From positions 50,528 through 114,527 of the forward strand of contig CAYQZQ010000001.1 of NCBI GenBank assembly GCA_964422035.1: a stretch of 64,000 nucleotides of DNA, in the 5' to 3' direction. The position numbers were made by a program, and so were the translations under genes. Within the stretch, counting starts at the first letter, position 1, and each line of letters begins with the position of its first letter. Source of the stretch: an uncultured Pseudomonadales bacterium. Its GTDB lineage: Bacteria > Patescibacteriota > Microgenomatia > UBA1400 > Chazhemtobacteraceae. The notes below the pieces were generated by a model. It saw nothing but the letters and a program-made list of their open reading frames with translations. It did not search any database and was not told the DNA's origin. Shown in pieces: positions 19,391-61,271 of this stretch.

Positions 19391-20932
19391 ATGGCAGTTT
19401 TTTATCGCAAATACCGACCACAGAAAATTTCAGATCTAGATCTTGTTGATGTGCGAGAAAGACTGGAAAAAGACCTTAAAAAAGGAGAACTTACTCATGC
19501 ATATTTGTTTGTTGGTCCCAGAGGATCTGGCAAAACCAGTGCAGCTAGGATTTTGTCCAAGGTTTTAAATTGCAAAGAGAATCAGGACAATAAAGGCAAG
19601 TTGGAAGAGCCTTGTTTGGATTGCAATCAATGTGAGAACATTGAGAAGAACAAAGCGGTGGATGTGATTGAGATTGATGCGGCTTCTCATAGAGGTATTG
19701 ATGCGATAAGAGAGTTGCGTGACAAGATAGGTTTGTCTCCTGTCTCGGCGGAGAAGAAGGTTTATATCATTGATGAGGTGCACATGTTGACCACCCCAGC
19801 TTTTAATGCGTTACTTAAGACACTGGAAGAGCCGCCAGAGCATGCCCAGTTCTTTTTATGTACTACGGAAGAGGAAAAAGTACCGGAGACAATTGCCTCA
19901 CGTTGTGTGAGGGTTGGGTTTACCAAAGCAACTGCGCAGGAGGTAAGGGATAGTTTGGAGAAAGTGGTGGAAGGTGAAAATCTTGAGATATCTGATGAAG
20001 CTTTGGAGTTGTTGGCTGAATCGGTAGATGGAAGTTTTCGCGAGGGGCATAAGTTATTAGAGCAGCTATCGGGTAAAGATGAGATTAAGCTAGAGGATGT
20101 TAAGAAAGTGTTGGGAGTGGCTCAGGGGATAGAGCCGGAGAAGCTGGCGTTGTTGTTGTTGGATGGAGATGCCAAGGGTGCTTTAAAGGAATTGGATAAA
20201 GCTGACAAGGCGGGAGTTATCTGGAGTGGGTATAGCTTAAGTGTTTTGGGGTATTTGCGTAATCAGCTTAAAGCCAAGTATGGATTAGGTAAGGAAGAGG
20301 TAAAGCATAGTAAAAGCCGGGTTAAAAATGTAACAGTAAGAGTAGAAAGGGCATGTGTAGAGATGAAAGATGCTGTGGTGGAACCGCTACCTTTGGAAGT
20401 GGCAGCGGCTGAATTGGGTGAAGAGCAAAAAAATGGAGAAGAGGGCAAAAAAGGCAATGGAGTAAAAAAGAAAAAACCTAAGTCGAGCTCTAAAGTTAAG
20501 AAAGCGAAGAAGAAAAGTACTCAAAAAGAAATAGGTAAAGTTAAGGCTAATAAGAAAAAATGTAAGGGAGGAGCGAAGATAAGTCTGCAGGATATTAAGG
20601 ATAAATGGGATGAGTTGATTAAAAGACTGGCGCCTGATAATCACAGCGTGGCGGGGCTATTGCGCTCATGTGAACCAAAGTCTGTTGATGATGATTGTTT
20701 GGTTATTGAAGCTTATTACAAGTTTCACAAAGAGCAGTTGGAACAGTCGAATAGAAGGATAATGGTTGAGAGGGAAGTTGATGAGTTAATGGGAATTAGG
20801 GGTGTCAAATATAAACTGGGAAAAAAGTCGAGCAAGAATAAAGTAGTTAAGGAAAAGCCGGTAAGTGATAATGCAAAGACTGGTGAAGATATTGAACTGG
20901 CAGATGCGGTAGAAGAGCTATTTGGGGTTTGA
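19391..20932 (+). CDS. dnaX: DNA polymerase III subunit gamma/tau
   Basis: YRKYRPQKISDLDLVDV; Walker A GPRGSGKTS; zinc module CLDCNQCENIEK; DEVHML box; SRC arginine; K-rich linker. Confidence 0.95.
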   Translation: MAVFYRKYRPQKISDLDLVDVRERLEKDLKKGELTHAYLFVGPRGSGKTSAARILSKVLNCKENQDNKGKLEEPCLDCNQCENIEKNKAVDVIEIDAASHRGIDAIRELRDKIGLSPVSAEKKVYIIDEVHMLTTPAFNALLKTLEEPPEHAQFFLCTTEEEKVPETIASRCVRVGFTKATAQEVRDSLEKVVEGENLEISDEALELLAESVDGSFREGHKLLEQLSGKDEIKLEDVKKVLGVAQGIEPEKLALLLLDGDAKGALKELDKADKAGVIWSGYSLSVLGYLRNQLKAKYGLGKEEVKHSKSRVKNVTVRVERACVEMKDAVVEPLPLEVAAAELGEEQKNGEEGKKGNGVKKKKPKSSSKVKKAKKKSTQKEIGKVKANKKKCKGGAKISLQDIKDKWDELIKRLAPDNHSVAGLLRSCEPKSVDDDCLVIEAYYKFHKEQLEQSNRRIMVEREVDELMGIRGVKYKLGKKSSKNKVVKEKPVSDNAKTGEDIELADAVEELFGV

Positions 20933-20954
20933 AGAGTAGTAATGGCGTGTTAAA

Positions 20955-21239
20955 ATGGCAAGCATGTTAGATAAAATAGGAAAAGTTGGTTCTCAGGGTA
21001 AAGCAGCGGCCAAGATGATGATGCTGCAAAGAAAGATTGGTAAAAAAAAGATAGAGTATCAGGATGAGAATATTAAAGTAGTGGTGACGGGTGACGGTAA
21101 GGTAAAGAGTATTGAGGTTGAAGGAGAGAAAAAAGAGGAGATTGCTAAGGTAGTTAATAAAGCTATCGAGAAAGCTCAAAAATGGGCTGCCAAACAAATG
21201 CAGGGGAAGATGGGCGATTTAAGTAAGATTCTTGGATAA
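20955..21239 (+). CDS. ybaB: Nucleoid-associated protein YbaB/EbfC
   Basis: 94 aa; the MMMLQRKIG...VVVTGDGKVKSIEV pattern matches YbaB; conserved dnaX-ybaB-recR order. Confidence 0.8.
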   Translation: MASMLDKIGKVGSQGKAAAKMMMLQRKIGKKKIEYQDENIKVVVTGDGKVKSIEVEGEKKEEIAKVVNKAIEKAQKWAAKQMQGKMGDLSKILG

Positions 21240-21281
21240 GGCTTGCTTGAGGGATTACAAAGAAGTTAAACTAGTTAGTGG

Positions 21282-21899
21282 ATGAATAGTATTAAACCAA
21301 TTGCCAAACTAATTGATCATTTGGAGCACTTGCCGGGGATTGGCCCCAAGACAGCCCAGAGACTGGCTTATTATATGTTGCGTTTTCCTCAGGGCAAGTT
21401 GGAAAGTTTTGCAGAAACGATAGAGAGATTGAAAAAAGAAACCAAGTTTTGTGAGATTTGTTACAACATAGATGATCAATCACCTTGTAAGATATGTGAG
21501 AATGAGAGCAGAAGTATAAAGACTTTGTGTGTGGTGGAGAGTCCGTTGGATGTGTTGGCTTTGGAGAAGTCAAATGGATTTGATGGAAAGTATCATGTTT
21601 TACATGGAGTGATTAACCCTTTAAATAATGTGGGGCCGGGGGATTTGTATTTACCTCAACTGCTGGAGAGATTGGAGAGCGAGTCAGTGGAGGAGTTGAT
21701 AATGGCTACCAACCCTTCGATGGAGGGAGAGGCGACGGCAATGTATATAGTAAATAAAATTAGAGAGATGCAAGAGGAGGACAGGATGGGTGAGATCAGA
21801 ATAACCAGGATTGGAAGAGGGTTGCCGACGGGGGCTGACGTGGAGTATGCAGATGAGGTAACTTTAAGCAAGGCTTTGGAGGGAAGAACTGAGTTATAG
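21282..21899 (+). CDS. recR: Recombination protein RecR
   Basis: HhH (LPGIGPKTAQRLAYY); C4 zinc finger (CEICYNIDDQSPCKICEN); Toprim domain. Confidence 0.95.
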   Translation: MNSIKPIAKLIDHLEHLPGIGPKTAQRLAYYMLRFPQGKLESFAETIERLKKETKFCEICYNIDDQSPCKICENESRSIKTLCVVESPLDVLALEKSNGFDGKYHVLHGVINPLNNVGPGDLYLPQLLERLESESVEELIMATNPSMEGEATAMYIVNKIREMQEEDRMGEIRITRIGRGLPTGADVEYADEVTLSKALEGRTEL

Positions 21900-21917
21900 A
21901 TATGCTTAAATGGATAT

Positions 21918-22370
21918 ATGAGTAGTCTGGGAAAGCAAATGCAAAAAGGTGTTGGGCAGTTGGGTAAATCAGTTGGTGGTGACGTAGTTAAGGGTGTGGG
22001 GGAGGTGGGTAAAGGGATTGTGGAGGAGGCGGGTAAGAAAGGTATCGAGCAGATCACGGGAGGGGTGGTAAAGCCAGATGATGACAATAAGGACAGAATG
22101 AAGACAGGATTATCTGACGAGGAGGTAGTTTGGCAGAGACAACAACAAGAGAAAAGAGCCCGGGTGAGAAAAAGAATCAAAGAGTTGCAGGAGGAGTTTA
22201 AAAGAATGAGTAGAGGTGAGGAGATATTAGAGGAAAGAGAGGAAAGACAGGAAGAGGAGTTTGTTGAGAGGCGAAAAGAACAACAGGAAGAGGTAAAAAA
22301 ACAACAGAGACGCAAACTAATTAATCAGAAACAAAGCAGAGCCAGAGGAGAGTTTTTAGGGAAGCACTGA
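21918..22370 (+). CDS. Hypothetical low-complexity protein (G/V/K-rich N-terminus, E/R/Q-rich coiled-coil C-terminus)
   Basis: ORF with compositional bias only. Confidence 0.35.
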   Translation: MSSLGKQMQKGVGQLGKSVGGDVVKGVGEVGKGIVEEAGKKGIEQITGGVVKPDDDNKDRMKTGLSDEEVVWQRQQQEKRARVRKRIKELQEEFKRMSRGEEILEEREERQEEEFVERRKEQQEEVKKQQRRKLINQKQSRARGEFLGKH

Positions 22371-22390
22371 AGATGATATGATATTGCCCT

Positions 22391-22909
22391 ATGGGCAGGA
22401 TAGAGAAGATTCGTTCTACAAATCCAAAACTTTTGGAGGGGGAAAACAAGCAGATGGTGTCTGTGTGGAGACAGAGACTGGATGACAAGGAAAAACGTAA
22501 GCTTAATCATGAGGGGGCGATTTTATTTACATATAATGACGAGATTGTAGATCATGTATGCTTACGCGGACTTCGATTTAAGGCAGAAAGCGAAGAGGAG
22601 TTGGAGAGAATGAGAGAGGAGTTGGCCCGTAGAGTGATTGCAGAGGGAAAGATGTGGCAACTGGGAGGGGATTGGAAAGTATTATGGCTTGAACCGAGGA
22701 GAAATAGTGCAGGAGGGGGAAGTTATAGATATAAATTTTGGGATACGAAAGCAAGCTCAAGGGAAGATTCTAATATCCAGAGAGTTGGAGGATACACAAA
22801 AAGTAAATACAGGCATAGTAAGCACCGTCAGTCGGTGTCGGATTATTTGAAGAGAACAGAAAGGTACAAAAATAACCAGTTTAGAAAGAAGTGGAAGAAG
22901 GATAAATAG
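22391..22909 (+). CDS. Hypothetical basic protein (172 aa)
   Basis: ORF only; no motif recognised. Confidence 0.4.
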   Translation: MGRIEKIRSTNPKLLEGENKQMVSVWRQRLDDKEKRKLNHEGAILFTYNDEIVDHVCLRGLRFKAESEEELERMREELARRVIAEGKMWQLGGDWKVLWLEPRRNSAGGGSYRYKFWDTKASSREDSNIQRVGGYTKSKYRHSKHRQSVSDYLKRTERYKNNQFRKKWKKDK

Positions 22910-22960
22910 AATTTGACAGGTGTTTGGGGGATATTTATAATTGCCTACGCACGTTAACAA

Positions 22961-23046
22961 GGGGCTGTCGTCTAATGGTAAGACATCCGGTTTTATAAAT
23001 TTATCCTCGCACCGGAAAAATATGGGTTCGAGTCCCATCAGTCCCT
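22961..23046 (+). tRNA. tRNA-like gene with a 21-nt anticodon loop (insertion, mini-intron or pseudogene); isotype undetermined
   Basis: Cloverleaf read directly from the sequence. Acceptor GGGGCTG/CAGTCCC (one G-U pair). D-arm GTCT-AATGGTA-AGAC. Anticodon stem TCCGG/CCGGA enclosing TTTTATAAATTTATCCTCGCA (21 nt instead of 7). Variable region AAAAT. T-arm ATGGG-TTCGAGT-CCCAT. Discriminator T. Confidence 0.5.
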
Positions 23047-23048
23047 AT

Positions 23049-23189
23049 AGGAAGGAAGTTGGTTAGGGCCGACCATGGTCTAAGGTTAAATACTCTTATT
23101 GAATGAGAGTGAACTAGTACCGTGAGGGAATTTCACATTCAATCAGCGTATTTGTTTTCCCACTAAATGCTTCCACCAACTTCCTTCCT
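23049..23189. repeat. 15-bp perfect inverted repeat (aGGAAGGAAGTTGGT ... ACCAACTTCCTTCCt) enclosing about 110 nt that carries a 23S-rRNA-like 15-mer (AGTACCGTGAGGGAA)
   Basis: Left arm 23049-23063, right arm 23175-23189, exact reverse complements. The internal sequence gaactAGTACCGTGAGGGAAtttc is identical over 15 nt to the conserved 23S rRNA domain I segment GAGUACCGUGAGGGAAAGG. The element sits exactly between two tRNA-like genes. Confidence 0.5.
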
Positions 23190-23199
23190 TTTGTACTTT

Positions 23200-23272
23200 G
23201 CGTCTGTAGCTTAACTGGTAAAGCCTAAGGTCCACTTCCTTAGAGTTGAGAGTTCAACTCTCTCCAGGCGCT
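23200..23272 (+). tRNA. tRNA-like gene with a non-canonical anticodon loop TCCACTT (C33, pyrimidine 37); formal anticodon CAC
   Basis: Acceptor GCGTCTG/CAGGCGC (one G-U pair). D-arm GCTT-AACTGGTA-AAGC. Anticodon stem TAAGG/CCTTA. Variable region GAGTT. T-arm GAGAG-TTCAACT-CTCTC. Discriminator T. The plus-strand fold is better than the minus-strand fold, which has a C-A mismatch in the acceptor stem. Confidence 0.5.
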
Positions 23273-23657
23273 TTAGAAAGTTTGCTTAATGCTGAGTCGC
23301 ATATCAGCTGTGTACTTGATAGCAGGCTTTCTTATACCGTGGGGTAAAAAAATAAACGAGTAGCTAATTACTCGGTCTCCTCCTTTGAGATATTTTTTAC
23401 AACCCCACGGTTTTTTTGTGGTACAAATTGGTTTATATGAGGCTGTAAGCTTGATGTAAATTAAGAGAGTGAATGTAATAACAAGTGTACTTTGAAAGGC
23501 ACGCCTAGGGTTAGTTGTTTTCAGCCAAGGCTCGGCCTTTTTGAACTCCTTGCTTAGCCGCAGGGGAGTAAACTGAGTTTTTTTAATTGTCTTTCCCTCA
23601 GTTTGTACTTTGTTCTTGTGGCTTTTTTTATGCTTTAAAATTGGTAAGATAGAGGTT

Positions 23658-25046
23658 ATGAAGTTACACAATTCATTAACAGATGAAAGGGAGGAATTTG
23701 TACCTTTGGGAGATGTGGTAAGGATGTATACTTGCGGACCGACTGTTTATGATTATGTGACGATAGGTAACTGGAGAACATACACTTTGGGGGACTTTGT
23801 AGTTAGAACACTTAAGTTTTTGGGGTATGAAGTTAAGTATGTGATGAATATTACTGATGTTGGTCATTTAACCGGTGATAATTTAGGGGACTCTGATAGT
23901 GGTGAGGACAGGATGGAGAAGGCCAGTGAGCGGGAAGGCAAGACTGCCAGTGAACTGGCTGATTTTTATAGCAAGGATTTTAAAAAAGGGATGGAGAAGT
24001 TGAATTTTGTTATGCCTGACAAGCTGCCTAAGGCAACGGCTCATATTGATGAGCAGATTGAGATGATTGAAAAGATTGAGAAGAAAGGGTTTGCCTATCA
24101 GATATCGGATGGAGTGTATTTTGATACCAGCGCTTATGAAAAAGCAGGCAATGAGTATGGCAAGTTATCATCGTTGGATGAGATAAAAGAAGGAGCAAGA
24201 GTTGAAGTTAATGAGGAGAAAAAGGATGCGCGAGATTTTGCTTTATGGAAGTTTTCAAAAGAGAAAGATCGACAGATGGAGTGGGACAGTCCTTGGGGGA
24301 TAGGGTTTCCCGGTTGGCATATAGAGTGCTCGGCTATGAGTATGGAATATCTGGGCAGTCAGTTTGATATTCATATTGGTGGTGAAGACTTGCGTTCTAC
24401 ACACCATCCGAATGAGATTGCCCAGAGTGAGACAGTAAGTGGAAAAAAGCCGTTTGTTAAGTACTGGCTGCATGGAGCATTTTTGCAAGTGGATGGAGGC
24501 AGAATGGGGAAGAGCTTGGGTAATGCATATAGTTTGCATGATCTGGAAGAGAGGGGATACTCAGCGCTTGATCTAAGATACTTTTTTTTGACAGGACACT
24601 GGCGTAAGCCGTTGAATTTTACCTGGGAGGCTCTGGAGGCAGCCAAGGTGGCCCGAAAGAAGCTGGTAAGTAGAGTCAGTCATTGGCAAGAGAAGGGGGA
24701 AAAGGGTGGAGGCTGTTTTGAGTATGAAGAAAAGTTTGTAGAGGCGGTGGAGGATAATCTGAACATGCCAAAAGCGCTGGCGGTGATGTGGGATATGATA
24801 AAAAGTGAAGAGGAAGGTAGAGATAAGCTGGCAAGTGTGATCAGATTTGACAGAATTTTGGGCTTGGGGCTGCAGGAGAGAAAAATAGTTGAGATACCGG
24901 AGAGAATTCGGGAGCTGGTAAGAAAAAGAGAATGGCTGCGGGAGCAGAGAAAATGGGATGAGGCAGATGAGGTAAGAGAGAAGATTGAAAGCCAGGGATT
25001 TAAGCTTGAGGATGAGGATGAACAAACCAAGATTGTTTCTGAGTAG
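23658..25046 (+). CDS. cysS: Cysteinyl-tRNA synthetase with a variant HIGH (TIGN) and variant KMSKS (RMGKS)
   Basis: CGPTVYDY..., zinc-ligand region GWHIECSAM, HIGGEDL..HHPNEIAQSE, and a C-terminal DALR-2-like region. ORF-track start 23610; the ATG at 23658 (MKLHNSL) has a GGAGG-like RBS (GAGG) 6 nt upstream. Confidence 0.9.
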   Translation: MKLHNSLTDEREEFVPLGDVVRMYTCGPTVYDYVTIGNWRTYTLGDFVVRTLKFLGYEVKYVMNITDVGHLTGDNLGDSDSGEDRMEKASEREGKTASELADFYSKDFKKGMEKLNFVMPDKLPKATAHIDEQIEMIEKIEKKGFAYQISDGVYFDTSAYEKAGNEYGKLSSLDEIKEGARVEVNEEKKDARDFALWKFSKEKDRQMEWDSPWGIGFPGWHIECSAMSMEYLGSQFDIHIGGEDLRSTHHPNEIAQSETVSGKKPFVKYWLHGAFLQVDGGRMGKSLGNAYSLHDLEERGYSALDLRYFFLTGHWRKPLNFTWEALEAAKVARKKLVSRVSHWQEKGEKGGGCFEYEEKFVEAVEDNLNMPKALAVMWDMIKSEEEGRDKLASVIRFDRILGLGLQERKIVEIPERIRELVRKREWLREQRKWDEADEVREKIESQGFKLEDEDEQTKIVSE

Positions 25047-25079
25047 TTAGGAGTTTGGTAAATACGATATGATGGAGAT

Positions 25080-25799
25080 ATGAAGAAGTTGGGGAGTATT
25101 TTATTGGTAATACTGGGAGTTTTGCTGTTTGTGGATTTGGCGTTTGTTAACTGGAAGATTTTAAATAGTAATCAATCACAGGTAGTTGAGCAACAAAGAG
25201 AGACAAATATCTGTGACAGAGAGTGCGTTGAGGCAATAATAGAGAGTAGACTGGGTAATGTTGATAGAGAGCAAGTTGAACAGATGGGTAGTGAGGTGGT
25301 TGAGACTGATGGTTGTGATAGGGAGTGTGTCAGTAAAATTGTAGATGAGAAGGTGGCTTTGATTAAGAATGAGTTGGTGGCAACGCCAACACCGACTCCA
25401 ACGGAGACGACTTCACAGGCTAGTGTGGTGAAAGAGACGCATATAGAGACGGTTGATTTATCAGGCGGCAGTGCAAAAGGGGGAGATTGGGTAAGGATTG
25501 GTGGTAGCGAGAAGTGGATGGATACTTCTTTATATGGGGAGTTGGTTTCAGCTACCTGGCAGGGGTGGATTGAGGTAAAGGATGGTAATGGAGTAGCTTA
25601 TGCAAGAATTTATGACGCAACTAACAACCGAGCAGTTGATGGTAGTTTAGTTAGTAATGCAAGTGGGGGGAAAGCAAGTTTTTATTCTGAGAATCTGTCT
25701 ATATGGAGAGGGCAAAATCAGTACTATATAGAGGTTAAGAGCAGTACAGGATATGAAGTGACTGTAGAGGGGACGAAGATAAAGCTTGAGGTGAGGTGA
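25080..25799 (+). CDS. Hypothetical membrane-anchored/secreted protein with a duplicated CDRECV motif
   Basis: N-terminal TM/signal segment (ILLVILGVLLFVDLAFV); two CDRECVxxI repeats; T/P-rich linker; beta-rich C-terminal domain. Confidence 0.45.
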   Translation: MKKLGSILLVILGVLLFVDLAFVNWKILNSNQSQVVEQQRETNICDRECVEAIIESRLGNVDREQVEQMGSEVVETDGCDRECVSKIVDEKVALIKNELVATPTPTPTETTSQASVVKETHIETVDLSGGSAKGGDWVRIGGSEKWMDTSLYGELVSATWQGWIEVKDGNGVAYARIYDATNNRAVDGSLVSNASGGKASFYSENLSIWRGQNQYYIEVKSSTGYEVTVEGTKIKLEVR

Positions 25800-25838
25800 T
25801 TATGATAAGATGAAGGCAATGAAAGGAGGTGAGAGTAA

Positions 25839-26087
25839 ATGAAAGATCAGAAAATAGGTGAAGTAACTCACTTTTATACTGGTATTAATGTAGCTATTGT
25901 GAAGCTGGAAGGTAAGCTGTCTGTAGGTGACAAGGTTATTTTTGAGGGAGCAACTACTGATTTTGAGCAGGAAGTTGATGATATGGAGTTTGATCACGAA
26001 AAACTGCAGGAAGCAGAAGCCGGCCAGGAAGTAGGTATTAAGGTAAAGGAAAGAGTAAGAGAGGGTGATGAGGTGTATTTAGCTTAA
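25839..26087 (+). CDS. Small EF-Tu domain-2-like beta-barrel protein
   Basis: 82 aa; pattern GINVAIVKLEGKLSVGDKV...AEAGQEVGIKVKERVREGDEV resembles EF-Tu/IF2 domain II. Confidence 0.45.
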   Translation: MKDQKIGEVTHFYTGINVAIVKLEGKLSVGDKVIFEGATTDFEQEVDDMEFDHEKLQEAEAGQEVGIKVKERVREGDEVYLA

Positions 26088-26131
26088 GAGGAATAGTAGG
26101 TGAATGTTAAAGTGTTGGAGAAAGAGTGTAA

Positions 26132-26368
26132 TTGGATAGACAAGAGAGGCTAGACTGGTATAATTGGGTTATGATGAAGTTTGTCAATTTTTTATTGAGT
26201 AGCCTTTCAGGTAAGAGGAATTTTTCCGTTGAGGAAGGTGTGAAGTATAGTCTGAAAAAATACAAGAAGGCCTATAAATTGCTGGAGAAGTATGACCAAG
26301 AAACTGCAAAAGACTGCCAAGAATTGGCTGACCCTGAAGACTTGCGCTCTTCTATTCAAGAGCTTTAA
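26132..26368 (+). CDS. Small hypothetical protein upstream of and overlapping the Doc/Fic gene; possible cognate antitoxin
   Basis: 78-aa ORF ending inside the 5' part of the Fic/Doc ORF in another frame; no motif recognised. Confidence 0.25.
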   Translation: MDRQERLDWYNWVMMKFVNFLLSSLSGKRNFSVEEGVKYSLKKYKKAYKLLEKYDQETAKDCQELADPEDLRSSIQEL

Positions 26369-26741
26369 GCAAGGGCTTGAATTTGGGGAACCGATTCCGG
26401 TTTTTGATAGCAGGTATCCAGGTAAGTTAGAGGGTATTTTGGATTCAGTGAGGCAGACCTATGACGGGAATTACTTGAATGCGACTGTAGCTGACGCATC
26501 AGCGGCATATTTTAATCAGTTAATTAGGGGCCATCCGTTTGAAAATGGAAATAAGAGAATGGCAGTTTTGTTTAGCCACTTTTTTCTTTTGAGAAATGGA
26601 GTAGATTTTACTTTGGGAAATCGGCAGATGTACCGATTTGCTTTAATAATTGCTAAAGCGGGAGAAAGTGGAATTAAAGCTGATGAGACAAAAAGGTGGT
26701 GTAAGCAGATTATTATACGATTTACTGAGGAGAAAAAATGA
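26292..26741 (+). CDS. Fic/Doc family protein (death-on-curing-like toxin)
   Basis: Fic motif HPFENGNKRMAV (HPFx[DE]GNKR). Size is Doc-like. True start uncertain: no in-frame ATG/GTG/TTG downstream of the 26368 stop, so the genes probably overlap. Confidence 0.7.
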   Translation: MTKKLQKTAKNWLTLKTCALLFKSFKQGLEFGEPIPVFDSRYPGKLEGILDSVRQTYDGNYLNATVADASAAYFNQLIRGHPFENGNKRMAVLFSHFFLLRNGVDFTLGNRQMYRFALIIAKAGESGIKADETKRWCKQIIIRFTEEKK

Positions 26742-27796
26742 GTTTATCAGTAGGAATAGTAGGGCTACCTAATGCAGGCAAGTCTACTTTATTTAACGCC
26801 CTTTTGGGCAAGCAGAAAGCCTTAACGGCTGAGTATCCATTTGCCACCATTGACCCAAACAAGGGTGTGGTAGGAGTGCCTGACAATAGATTGGATAGAT
26901 TATCAAACGCCACTGGTATTGATAATAAAAAACAGGCGACGGTGACATTTATTGATATTGCCGGATTGGTTAAAGGAGCAGCTGATGGCGAAGGGTTGGG
27001 AAATCAGTTTTTAGGCCAGATCAGGGAAGTGGATTTGATTTGTCATGTAGTGCGTGATTTTGAAGCTGAAGGAGTAGAGAAGATCGGCAAGAACCCTTTA
27101 GATGATTATCAGACTGTTCAAGCAGAGCTTATTTTAAAAGATCTGGAGACAGTGGAGAAGGCTTTGGATAAGACAGGAGTTAATCAGAAAGAAGAGAAAA
27201 GAGTTTTGAAAAGCCTTTATGAAAGTTTGAATGAAGGTGTGCCGGTGCGGGAACTGGAGGAGAGGAGAAGTGAAGAAGTAAAGCAGTTGAATCTGTTGAC
27301 CATCAAGGAGGAGATAGTGGTGGTTAACGTAGATGAAGATAAATTAGGAGAGATCAAAGAGGTTGAGAGCAAAGTTGGACAAGAGCTTGATATACCTGCC
27401 ATTGCATTGGCAGCTAAGCTTGAAGAGCAGGTATGGCAGTTGTCACAAGAAGAGCGAGAGGAGTTTTTGGAAGAGTTGTCAATCTTGGAGCTGGGATTAA
27501 ATAGATTGATAAGAGTAGCATTTGCTAAATTGGGATTGATTATTTTTTATACTACTACTTCGGAGGAGGAGATAAGGGCCTGGCCGGTAAAGAGAGGAAT
27601 TGAAGCCAGAAAGGCGGCTGGAGTGGTACATACAGACTTTGAGGAGAAGTTTATTAAAGCCAGAGTGATTGACTGGGAGGAGTATGCTAACTGGGGCAGT
27701 TGGCAGATAGCAGCCCAGGAGGGCAGGGTGAGAGTAGTGGGGGCGGACTACAAGATTGAAGACGGAGAAGCGGTTGAGTTTGTCAGTGGTTCTTGA
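26738..27796 (+). CDS. ychF: Ribosome-binding ATPase YchF (Obg-like)
   Basis: G1 motif GIVGLPNAGKSTLFNAL, YPFATIDPN, C-terminal TGS domain. Confidence 0.9.
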   Translation: MSLSVGIVGLPNAGKSTLFNALLGKQKALTAEYPFATIDPNKGVVGVPDNRLDRLSNATGIDNKKQATVTFIDIAGLVKGAADGEGLGNQFLGQIREVDLICHVVRDFEAEGVEKIGKNPLDDYQTVQAELILKDLETVEKALDKTGVNQKEEKRVLKSLYESLNEGVPVRELEERRSEEVKQLNLLTIKEEIVVVNVDEDKLGEIKEVESKVGQELDIPAIALAAKLEEQVWQLSQEEREEFLEELSILELGLNRLIRVAFAKLGLIIFYTTTSEEEIRAWPVKRGIEARKAAGVVHTDFEEKFIKARVIDWEEYANWGSWQIAAQEGRVRVVGADYKIEDGEAVEFVSGS

Positions 27797-61164: not shown

Positions 61165-61198
61165 ATTTAGATATTAACATTGATAACGTGTAAATGGG

Positions 61199-61271
61199 GG
61201 AGATCGACGGGATTTGAACCCGCAACCGTCGGTACCACAAACCGATGCTCTACCATTGAGCTACGATCTCC
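61199..61271 (-). tRNA. tRNA-His (anticodon GTG) with genomically encoded G-1
   Basis: Minus-strand cloverleaf. G-1 plus GAGATCG acceptor pairing with CGATCTC-C73. D-arm GCTC-AATGGTA-GAGC. Anticodon arm TCGGT-TTGTGGT-ACCGA. Variable region CGGTT. T-arm GCGGG-TTCAAAT-CCCGT. Followed by CCCA. Confidence 0.9.

What the first reader, a model, noticed from the sequence alone, without database searches (positions are those of the whole stretch)
23200..23272. Second tRNA-like gene with a non-canonical anticodon loop (C33, pyrimidine 37)
Good acceptor, D- and T-arms, but the only foldable anticodon stem (TAAGG/CCTTA) gives loop TCCACTT. It lacks the universal U33 and a purine at 37; the formal anticodon is CAC. 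Together with the neighbouring aberrant tRNA this suggests a pair of non-standard or decaying tRNA genes, or tRNA-like elements with another role.
Basis: seen in the sequence. Interest (0 to 1): 0.5.

Follow-up and report, generated by a model that had tools for sequence, protein, structure and literature searches.

The report
Conserved tRNA-shaped RNA, free anticodon loop
The odd tRNA gene is real, and the same gene in four related uncultured bacterial lineages keeps the tRNA body almost unchanged while the anticodon loop differs in every lineage, so it is most likely a tRNA-shaped RNA kept for some job other than reading codons.

Summary
Positions 23200-23272 fold as a good cloverleaf (ARAGORN Val-CAC; Rfam tRNA 52.1 bits). 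The only stem register gives the loop UCCACUU, with C33 and U37.

The host is a Patescibacteria (Microgenomates-like) chromosome. The gene lies in a noncoding unit between a 172-aa ORF and cysS. The unit consists of:
- a perfect TTGACA-N17-TATAAT promoter;
- tRNA-like A, which has a 21-nt anticodon loop;
- a 153-nt hairpin;
- tRNA-like B, which is the finding;
- a structured trailer and terminator.

Eight contigs from four other lineages carry the same unit. B's body is 94-95% identical among close relatives, against 55-69% at third codon positions. Its 5' half is 25/25 identical in the most distant lineage.

B's anticodon loop differs in every lineage:
- CUGAUAU;
- UUCAUAU;
- a 12-nt loop;
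- UCCACUU (this window);
- UUUUAAA, a stop anticodon in an organism that uses TAA and TAG as stops.

All copies have U73.

I conclude that B is a selected, non-decoding tRNA-shaped RNA, probably cut out of the precursor by tRNA-processing enzymes. It is not a decaying gene. Its function is unknown. The family is confined to a narrow clade.

The parts
22913..22941 (+). Sigma-70 promoter TTGACA-N17-TATAAT (12 of 12 consensus positions), 19 nt upstream of tRNA-like A. It is followed by the conserved leader ACGCACGTTAACAA (22947-22960).
   Evidence: only 12/12 site in the region. Conserved in L082-L089. Coordinates.
22961..23046 (+). tRNA-like A: a cloverleaf with a 21-nt anticodon loop at 22991-23011. 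The loop is 15-24 nt in relatives.
   Evidence: Rfam tRNA 57.9 bits. Not called by ARAGORN. Orthologues score 41-52 bits. Acceptor-stem pairs 1:72 and 4:69 change on both sides between lineages.
23047..23199 (+). Hairpin 1. It has a 15-bp perfect closing stem (23049-23063 with 23175-23189), a poorly conserved interior with a conserved GGGAAUUUCA/UUUUCCC helix, and the linker TTTGTACTTT (23190-23199).
   Evidence: Fold z = -4.5. Inverted repeat I2, 100% complementary. Closing stem 93-100% and interior 44-64% identical among close lineages.
23200..23272 (+). tRNA-like B, the finding. Canonical body, anticodon loop UCCACUU at 23231-23237 (C33, U37), U73, no encoded CCA.
   Evidence: Orthologues. 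Alignment A1. 99% of cells paired and 2 compensatory T-stem pairs. Constraint statistics.
23273..23335 (+). Trailer hairpin. The outer stem 23275-23286 with 23321-23332 encloses the hairpin 23291-23308. It starts 2 nt after B's discriminator, as hairpin 1 does after A.
   Evidence: compensatory change at one outer-stem pair. 87-90% identity.
23336..23417 (+). Compound terminator. The long stem ACCGTGGGGT/ACCCCACGGT is followed by T7. It encloses two small hairpins, one of which presents an invariant CUCCUUU loop (23376-23390).
   Evidence: three pairs with compensatory changes. Coordinates.
23451..23542 (+). Remnant of a second unit: a weak promoter-like TTGATG-N17-TGTAAT, the TGTACTTTG motif and a short terminator (23524-23542). 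Relatives L083, L086 and L087 have about 200 more bases here, holding a degenerate tRNA-like element and a GGGAGGAGG hairpin.
   Evidence: Alignment, sequence. L089's tRNA-like A matches this second unit with score 66, against a shuffled maximum of 40.
23557..23629 (+). Terminator just upstream of cysS (ATG at 23658). Its 3' strand lies in a 32-nt copy (23593-23624, 75% identity) of 'hairpin 3' strand + linker + start of B' (23181-23212). This is a decayed paralogue of the B module and a likely attenuator.
   Evidence: Direct repeat D1. Fold. Conserved in L083, L086, L087 and L081.

Best explanation
B is a tRNA-shaped RNA that selection has kept intact but that does not read codons. It is transcribed from a very strong promoter as one domain of a precursor of about 470 nt: leader, tRNA-like A, hairpin 1, tRNA-like B, trailer hairpin, terminator. 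Both tRNA-shaped domains have everything that RNase P (5' cut) and RNase Z plus the CCA-adding enzyme (3' end, no encoded CCA) recognise. The precursor is therefore most likely cut at the tRNA borders into discrete stable pieces. The functional part of B is its body: acceptor stem with U73, D arm, anticodon stem and T arm, i.e. the L-shape. The anticodon loop has no role and drifts at about the neutral rate. C33 and U37 in this window are therefore tolerated drift, not a special decoding device. SHOWN: the cloverleaf, the promoter, conservation of the unit in five lineages, strong constraint on the body against roughly neutral divergence of the loop, and decay of paralogous copies in the same array. 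INFERRED: processing by RNase P and RNase Z, absence from translation, and B itself being the selected product. I favour the last point because B is the only element of the unit alignable between the distant lineage L089 and the window; B is also kept intact in all five lineages. The partner that reads the body is unknown.
For: 1. The same unit lies downstream of the o172 orthologue in contigs from independent assemblies (L082-L089, from ENA and Logan).
2. B's body is 63/66 and 62/66 identical to L082 and L085. Third codon positions of o172 are 119/172 and 94/171 identical. Fisher tests of body against third positions give p = 5e-06 and 2e-09.
3. The loop differs at 5/7 positions from L082 and 6/7 from L089 (loop against body p = 7e-05 and 1e-03).
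4. Loops by lineage are CUGAUAU, UUCAUAU, UUUCAUCCAUAU, UCCACUU and UUUUAAA.
5. The cloverleaf pairs in 99% of cells, with two compensatory pairs in the T stem.
6. T-loop and D-loop changes fall only at positions 16, 57 (purine to purine), 59 and 60, which also vary in real tRNAs.
7. All five copies have U73. By the published E. coli identity rules, Ile, Met and Val tRNAs use A73 (my knowledge).
8. L089 carries a UUA anticodon although TAA and TAG end genes in that organism.
9. The promoter matches 12/12 consensus positions and is conserved.
10. Paralogous copies of the module in the same array have lost the tRNA shape or been deleted. Without selection the shape does decay here.
Against: 1. 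There are no expression, end-mapping or charging data.
2. There are only five lineages, four of them close, and L088 may be a recombinant or strain-chimeric contig.
3. Three of the five loops are still canonical (7 nt, U33, A37).
4. GAU, CAU and CAC are single-step neighbours. They belong to Ile, Met and Val, whose synthetases rely mainly on the anticodon. A wandering supernumerary decoder is therefore not excluded for some lineages.
5. RNase P does not need an anticodon stem, yet that stem is conserved.
6. The 25/25 identity of the 5' half in L089, against 14 changes in the rest of the body, is not explained by ordinary tRNA-shape constraint.
7. Only 64 kb of the roughly 725-kb contig was available, so the canonical tRNA set of this genome is unknown.
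Confidence: 0.55

Rival explanations
1. B is a supernumerary but real decoding tRNA whose anticodon shifts between Ile (GAU), Met/Ile2 (CAU) and Val (CAC) by single substitutions. In this window it would be a tRNA-Val(CAC) reading GUG with an unusual C33/U37 loop.
For: ARAGORN and Rfam call a full tRNA. L082 and L088 have canonical loops with U33 and A37, and higher scores of 61.8 and 63.6 bits. GAU, CAU and CAC are one-step neighbours, and IleRS, MetRS and ValRS identity is anticodon-dominated (my knowledge of anticodon-switch experiments). GUG is a frequent codon here, 118 of 330 Val codons in 17 genes.
Against: U73 is present in all copies instead of A73. L085, L086 and L087 have a 12-nt loop. 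L089 has a stop anticodon UUA in an organism that uses TAA and TAG as stops. C33 and U37 in the window remove the U-turn base and the purine 37. Orthologous decoders do not normally change isotype between genomes this close (RecR 89-93% identical).
Confidence: 0.15
2. B is a trans-acting tRNA mimic: a decoy or ligand for a protein or RNA that binds tRNA bodies. Candidates are a tRNA-targeting nuclease or toxin, a modification enzyme, or the attenuator-like leader in front of cysS next door.
For: B is the most conserved piece of the unit and the only element alignable between L089 and the window; it is also kept intact in all five lineages. The anticodon stem and the whole L-shape are conserved although processing enzymes do not need the stem. 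The unit always sits just upstream of a terminator-containing cysS leader. U73 is the discriminator used by tRNA-Cys and tRNA-Gly, and G1-C72, C2-G71, G3-C70 match the bacterial tRNA-Gly acceptor set (my knowledge).
Against: No partner was identified. Rfam finds no T-box or other known tRNA-sensing leader. The loops show no lineage-matched complementarity to any part of the unit. Loop divergence is about neutral rather than clearly diversifying: 48% pooled against 31-45% at third codon positions.
Confidence: 0.15
3. B is a recently inactivated tRNA gene, a pseudogene that has not yet had time to decay, in a junk-like array built by tandem duplication.
For: The array clearly duplicates and decays. 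The second unit is degenerate in L083 and deleted in the window, and a B-like remnant forms the cysS-proximal terminator. Two of the five loops are non-canonical.
Against: The loop is already saturated with changes (5/7 and 6/7) while the body has only 3-4 changes in 66 nt at a divergence where third codon positions differ by 31-45%. Body changes fall only at tRNA-variable positions or are compensatory. The promoter stays perfect. The same pattern holds in every lineage, including L089.
Confidence: 0.1

Closest known systems
tRNA-Other of Bacillus cereus (pseudo-tRNA; Rogers et al. 2012, PMC3399842)
   Same: A chromosomal tRNA-like gene that, according to the paper, does not function in translation. 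[quoted passage not shown]
   Different: tRNA-Other flanks a pathogenicity island in a Firmicute and is a single element. Here there is a pair of tRNA-like domains with hairpins under one promoter, in a Patescibacteria lineage, with no island. There is no sequence relationship, and non-function in translation is only inferred here.
mascRNA / MALAT1 and MEN-beta tRNA-like elements (Rfam RF01684)
   Same: tRNA-shaped modules inside a longer noncoding transcript. They are cut by RNase P and RNase Z to define the ends of the flanking RNA, and their anticodon loop is not conserved (my knowledge). This is the 'works like' model for processing.
   Different: These are eukaryotic. RF01684 matched only tRNA-like A, at 20.6 bits against a gathering score of 42.5. 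A and B have full canonical D and T loops, unlike mascRNA.
Bacterial Y RNA YrlA tRNA-like domain (Chen et al. 2014, PMC4201824)
   Same: A bacterial noncoding RNA that mimics the tRNA shape for a non-decoding purpose.
   Different: From my knowledge of YrlA, its 5' and 3' ends form the Ro-binding stem and the tRNA-like part is internal. Here the ends lie in ordinary acceptor stems. No Y RNA family was hit in Rfam. No Ro/TROVE gene is among the ten proteins scanned between 16.6 and 30.5 kb.
Canonical bacterial tRNA-Val(CAC)
   Same: Cloverleaf, tertiary nucleotides, 5-nt variable loop and formal anticodon CAC.
   Different: C33 instead of U33, U37 instead of a purine, U73 instead of A73, and an anticodon that is not conserved in orthologues.

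Membership tests
tRNA (Rfam RF00005, shape only) | Covariance-model score above the gathering score (29 bits) | tested here: met
   52.1 bits in the window. Orthologues score 49.7-63.6 bits.
Decoding elongator tRNA | 7-nt anticodon loop with U33 and a purine at 37 | tested here: not met
   The window has C33 and U37. L085, L086 and L087 have a 12-nt loop. L082, L088 and L089 do have canonical loops.
Decoding elongator tRNA | Anticodon conserved among orthologues of closely related genomes | tested here: not met
   CAC, GAU, CAU, an interrupted loop and UUA occur in five lineages with an otherwise near-identical body.
Decoding elongator tRNA | Acceptor-end identity elements agree with the anticodon (A73 for Val, Ile and Met in the E. 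coli rules) | tested here: not met
   U73 is present in all five copies. The rule itself comes from my knowledge and was not tested for Patescibacteria.
Decoding elongator tRNA | Aminoacylated and present on ribosomes | not testable with these tools
   This needs tRNA-seq or charging assays.
tRNA pseudogene (decaying) | Relaxed constraint over the whole gene, broken stems, loss of expression signals | tested here: not met
   Body 94-95% identical against 55-69% at third codon positions. 99% of stem cells paired. 12/12 promoter conserved.
Intron-containing tRNA of Patescibacteria (group I intron; PMC13011429) | A group I intron of a few hundred nt in the anticodon loop, detectable as Intron_gpI | tested here: not met
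   B has no insert. A's insert is about 14 nt (8-17 nt in relatives). No Intron_gpI hit even at E <= 10. Paper outline.
tRNA-like processing module (mascRNA type) | Cleaved by RNase P at the 5' end and RNase Z at the 3' end of the tRNA-like domain, releasing the flanking RNA | not testable with these tools
   The structural prerequisites are present: acceptor and T arms, D/T elbow, no encoded CCA.
Pseudo-tRNA inside a regulatory RNA (tRNA-Other type) | tRNA-like element embedded in longer transcripts and absent from translation | tested here: inconclusive
   One promoter and one terminator bracket A, hairpin 1, B and the trailer. The transcripts themselves were not observed.
T-box or other known tRNA-sensing leader of cysS | Match to Rfam T-box (RF00230) upstream of the synthetase gene | tested here: not met
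   No hit in 22700-23700 at E <= 10.

The most novel reading that the evidence does not exclude
B is the core of a lineage-specific class of bacterial tRNA mimics: a highly expressed tRNA body whose anticodon loop is irrelevant. It would work in trans through its L-shape and U73 acceptor end. It might be the effector of the attenuator in front of cysS, a tRNA-body-sensing switch without a specifier. Alternatively it might be a decoy that soaks up a tRNA-targeting enzyme. The invariant 5' half would be the contact surface.
Probability: 0.15. Interest if true: 0.7.

Novelty: new variant of a known kind. Interest (0 to 1): 0.5.

Why it matters
Annotation pipelines would record this gene as tRNA-Val in one genome, tRNA-Ile or tRNA-Met in the next, and a suppressor in a third. 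That would distort inferred tRNA sets and genetic-code predictions for Patescibacteria, where such inferences are used to argue for recoding and for missing functions.

If the body-only constraint is confirmed, this would be a bacterial tRNA-shaped RNA maintained for a non-decoding role in an organism whose contig is only about 725 kb. In so small a genome, about 750 bp of conserved noncoding sequence under a consensus promoter is unlikely to be idle. It also gives a compact natural example of how duplicated tRNA modules are recycled into hairpins and terminators.

Tried and rejected
- **Other stem register or loop size for B.** ARAGORN, Infernal and the MFE fold all agree.
- **Known RNA families for the hairpins and leader.** I checked 5S, SRP, 6S, RNase P, tmRNA, T-box, Y RNA, group I intron and rRNA fragments. 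Nothing appeared at E <= 10 except chance-level miRNA hits.
- **Phage or plasmid-like origin.**
  - No phage match to 21000-26000.
  - Only partial tRNA-arm matches for B.
  - No IMG/VR match.
- **Wider distribution.** Two JGI metagenome scans found nothing: one with any stem plus the UCCACUU loop, and one with the invariant 25-mer of B.
  - 80 cysS loci of other Patescibacteria, plus L090 and L091, lack the unit.
  - In L022 and L090 the o172 orthologue abuts cysS.
  - RecR-based look-ups added no new lineage carrying the unit.
- **Targeted hypervariation (DGR-like).** L088 shares an identical o172 and tRNA-like A with L085 but differs downstream. This is explained by a recombinant or strain-chimeric contig. 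Loop divergence is about neutral.
- **Kissing-loop covariation between the A or B loops and the hairpin or trailer.** Cognate pairs are no better than non-cognate ones.
- **Target-site duplication.** The 9-nt repeat TTTAGAAAG flanks promoter-to-B. About one such repeat is expected by chance in 800 nt, and it is not conserved in L082.
- **Leader peptide.** A 17-codon ORF behind GGAGG in the second hairpin of L083 has no ATG in L086.
- **Isotype ancestry of B.** Only six canonical tRNAs occur in the fetched loci, too few to decide.

Full report
**Observation.** The 73 bases at 23200-23272 read GCGTCTG-TA-GCTT-AACTGGTA-AAGC-C-TAAGG-TCCACTT-CCTTA-GAGTT-GAGAG-TTCAACT-CTCTC-CAGGCGC-T. ARAGORN calls tRNA-Val(cac) at exactly these coordinates. 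Rfam's tRNA model gives 52.1 bits against a gathering score of 29, with E = 2.7e-08 for the window. The Infernal alignment and the minimum-free-energy fold use the same anticodon stem. No alternative register was offered by any tool. The tertiary nucleotides are canonical: U8, A14, G18 G19, U54 U55 C56 and A58. The discriminator is U73 and no CCA is encoded. The neighbour at 22961-23046 is also a real tRNA-like fold (57.9 bits) with a 21-nt anticodon loop, and ARAGORN does not call it.

**Context.** The surrounding genes are bacterial housekeeping genes, all on the + strand: rseP, dnaX, ybaB, recR, two small unknown ORFs (o150 and o172), then cysS, ychF, ssb and a Mur ligase. The best CysRS relatives in reference genomes are Patescibacteria of the Microgenomates group, at 56-62% identity. 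An identical CysRS is on record on a 725,544-bp contig. The order dnaX-ybaB-recR-...-cysS is widespread in that group.

**The transcription unit.** A TTGACA-N17-TATAAT promoter matching 12 of 12 consensus positions sits at 22913-22941, 19 nt before tRNA-like A. The unit then runs in this order:
- tRNA-like A;
- a 153-nt hairpin with a 15-bp perfect closing stem;
- the linker TTTGTACTTT;
- tRNA-like B;
- a trailer hairpin that starts 2 nt after B's discriminator;
- a compound terminator, 23336-23417.

**Relatives.**
- The ORF just upstream, o172, has only three homologue clusters in the large protein collection.
- All their contigs (L082-L084, L085-L088 and L089, from ENA and Logan assemblies of different samples) carry the same unit downstream: promoter, A, hairpin, B and trailer.
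- L089 overlaps L081 by 22 nt. L081 carries the 72%-identical cysS, so the unit lies upstream of cysS in that lineage too.
- More distant relatives lack the unit. 80 cysS loci contain no matching sequence or tRNA at that place.
- In L022 and L090 the o172 orthologue abuts cysS.
- Two JGI metagenome scans and two IMG/VR scans found nothing.
- The family is therefore confined, as far as can be seen, to one narrow clade.

**Pattern of constraint.** I compared the window with L082 and L085.

| Element | Identity to L082 | Identity to L085 |
|---|---|---|
| o172 third codon positions | 69% | 55% |
| B body | 63/66 | 62/66 |
| B anticodon loop | 2/7 | 4/7 |

- Against the distant L089, the B body is 79% identical and the loop 1/7.
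- Body against third codon positions gives p = 5e-06 (L082) and 2e-09 (L085).
- Loop against body gives p = 7e-05.
- The cloverleaf pairs in 99% of cells across five distinct sequences, with two compensatory changes in the T stem.
- Changes in the D and T loops fall only at positions 16, 57 (purine to purine), 59 and 60, which also vary in real tRNAs.

The loops are:

| Lineage | Anticodon loop of B |
|---|---|
| L082-84 | CUGAUAU |
| L088 | UUCAUAU |
| L085-87 | UUUCAUCCAUAU (the L088 loop plus a 5-nt insert) |
| window | UCCACUU |
| L089 | UUUUAAA |

All five copies have U73. L089's formal anticodon UUA would read UAA and UAG, which end genes in that organism. So the body carries the constraint signature of a real tRNA and the anticodon loop does not.

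tRNA-like A behaves similarly, with more body change: 83-94% identity, a variable loop of 15-24 nt, and both-sided changes at acceptor pairs 1:72 and 4:69. The closing stem of hairpin 1, the trailer and the terminator are conserved, with some compensatory changes. The interior of hairpin 1 is near neutral.

**An internal control.** The array was built from repeated modules.
- TGTACTTTG occurs three times (23192, 23486, 23604).
- A 32-nt copy of 'hairpin 3' strand + linker + start of B' lies at 23593-23624 and forms part of the terminator just before cysS.
- L083, L086 and L087 carry a second unit of about 200 nt. Its tRNA-like part no longer scores as tRNA, and the window has deleted it.
- L089's tRNA-like A is the intact counterpart of that second unit (score 66 against a shuffled maximum of 40).

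Copies that are not needed lose the tRNA shape here. One B copy is kept intact in every lineage.

**Interpretation.** The best-supported reading is that B is a selected, non-decoding tRNA-shaped RNA. The conservation pattern, the promoter and the structure are shown. It is inferred that RNase P and RNase Z cut the precursor at the tRNA borders, that CCA is added, and that B does not enter translation. B is the only element of the unit alignable between the window and the distant L089 lineage, and it is intact in all five lineages. I therefore think B itself, not the hairpins, is the selected product. Its partner is unknown. I put 0.55 on this reading.

**Rivals.**
- **A wandering supernumerary decoder (0.15).** GAU, CAU and CAC are one-step neighbours among anticodon-dominated identities, and three of the five loops are canonical. 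Against it stand U73, the 12-nt loop, the stop anticodon, and C33/U37.
- **A trans-acting mimic (0.15).** This would be a ligand or decoy, for example for the attenuator-like cysS leader. It fits the conserved L-shape and the location, but no partner or covarying site was found.
- **A recent pseudogene (0.10).** The saturated loop alongside the intact body contradicts it in every lineage.

**Unexplained.**
- B's 5' half (23200-23224) is 25/25 identical in L089, while the rest of the body has 14 changes.
- A keeps CGCA at the 3' end of its oversized loop in three lineages.

**Comparison with known systems.**
- The closest bacterial precedent is tRNA-Other of B. cereus. The paper describes it as a pseudo-tRNA that does not function in translation and acts as a tRNA-like element within larger regulatory RNAs (PMC3399842).
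- The closest mechanistic analogue for processing is the mascRNA/MALAT1 module (my knowledge).
- Bacterial Y RNAs (PMC4201824) mimic tRNA in a different arrangement.
- The group I introns reported in Patescibacteria tRNA genes (PMC13011429) do not apply here.

**Verdict.** This is a new variant of a known kind, of moderate interest. Function is unresolved, and the evidence base is five lineages.

Noticed in passing
window 23545-23657: cysS (ATG at 23658) is preceded by a terminator (23557-23566 with 23615-23629, then T7) and has no promoter of its own. An alternative hairpin (23545-23553 with about 23559-23568) competes for the GCAGGGG strand. This looks like a transcription attenuator of unknown signal. 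It is conserved in L083, L086 and L087, and the terminator is also present in L081. Rfam finds no T-box.
   Followed up: partly
window 23376-23390: A small hairpin UCUC-CUCCUUU-GAGA inside terminator 1 presents an anti-Shine-Dalgarno-like loop. It is invariant in all window-genus lineages. The 3' strands of the large hairpins (CUUCCUUCC, CCUCCUCCC) are similar pyrimidine tracts paired to SD-like purine tracts.
   Followed up: partly
window 22961-23046: tRNA-like A has a 21-nt anticodon loop (15-24 nt in relatives). The loop ends in CGCA in three lineages. The discriminator is U73 in the window and L082 but A73 in L085 and L089 by the Rfam alignment.
   Followed up: partly
window 20000-27000: GC skew is very strong, +0.3 to +0.65, in every coding stretch, and all genes are on the + strand. 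The skew falls to about 0 only in the noncoding array at 23000-23450.
   Followed up: no
window 23192, 23311, 23486, 23604 and 7 other sites: The motif TGTACTTKR occurs 11 times in the window against 2.0 expected (0 of 100 shuffles reach 11). Four copies lie in the noncoding array, one of them directly before B's 5' end.
   Followed up: no
L083 2700-2960; L086 and L087 equivalent: Relatives carry a second promoter-driven unit, about 200 nt of which the window has deleted (window 23451-23542 is the remnant). It holds a degenerate tRNA-like element with T arm TCGGTTCGAGTCCGAA and a GGGAGGAGGTTG/CAACCTCCTCCC hairpin.
   Followed up: partly
L088 (Logan SRR31660261): This contig is identical to L085-87 through o172, the promoter and tRNA-like A. 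It then switches to a different hairpin interior, B loop and trailer. It is either a recombinant or a strain-chimeric assembly.
   Followed up: partly
window 61195-61271 (- strand): A canonical tRNA-His(GUG) with G-1 and a normal UUGUGGU loop scores 70.5 bits. Ordinary tRNAs of this genome therefore have normal anticodon loops. Its 3' end reads CCCCA, one C more than C73 plus CCA.
   Followed up: no
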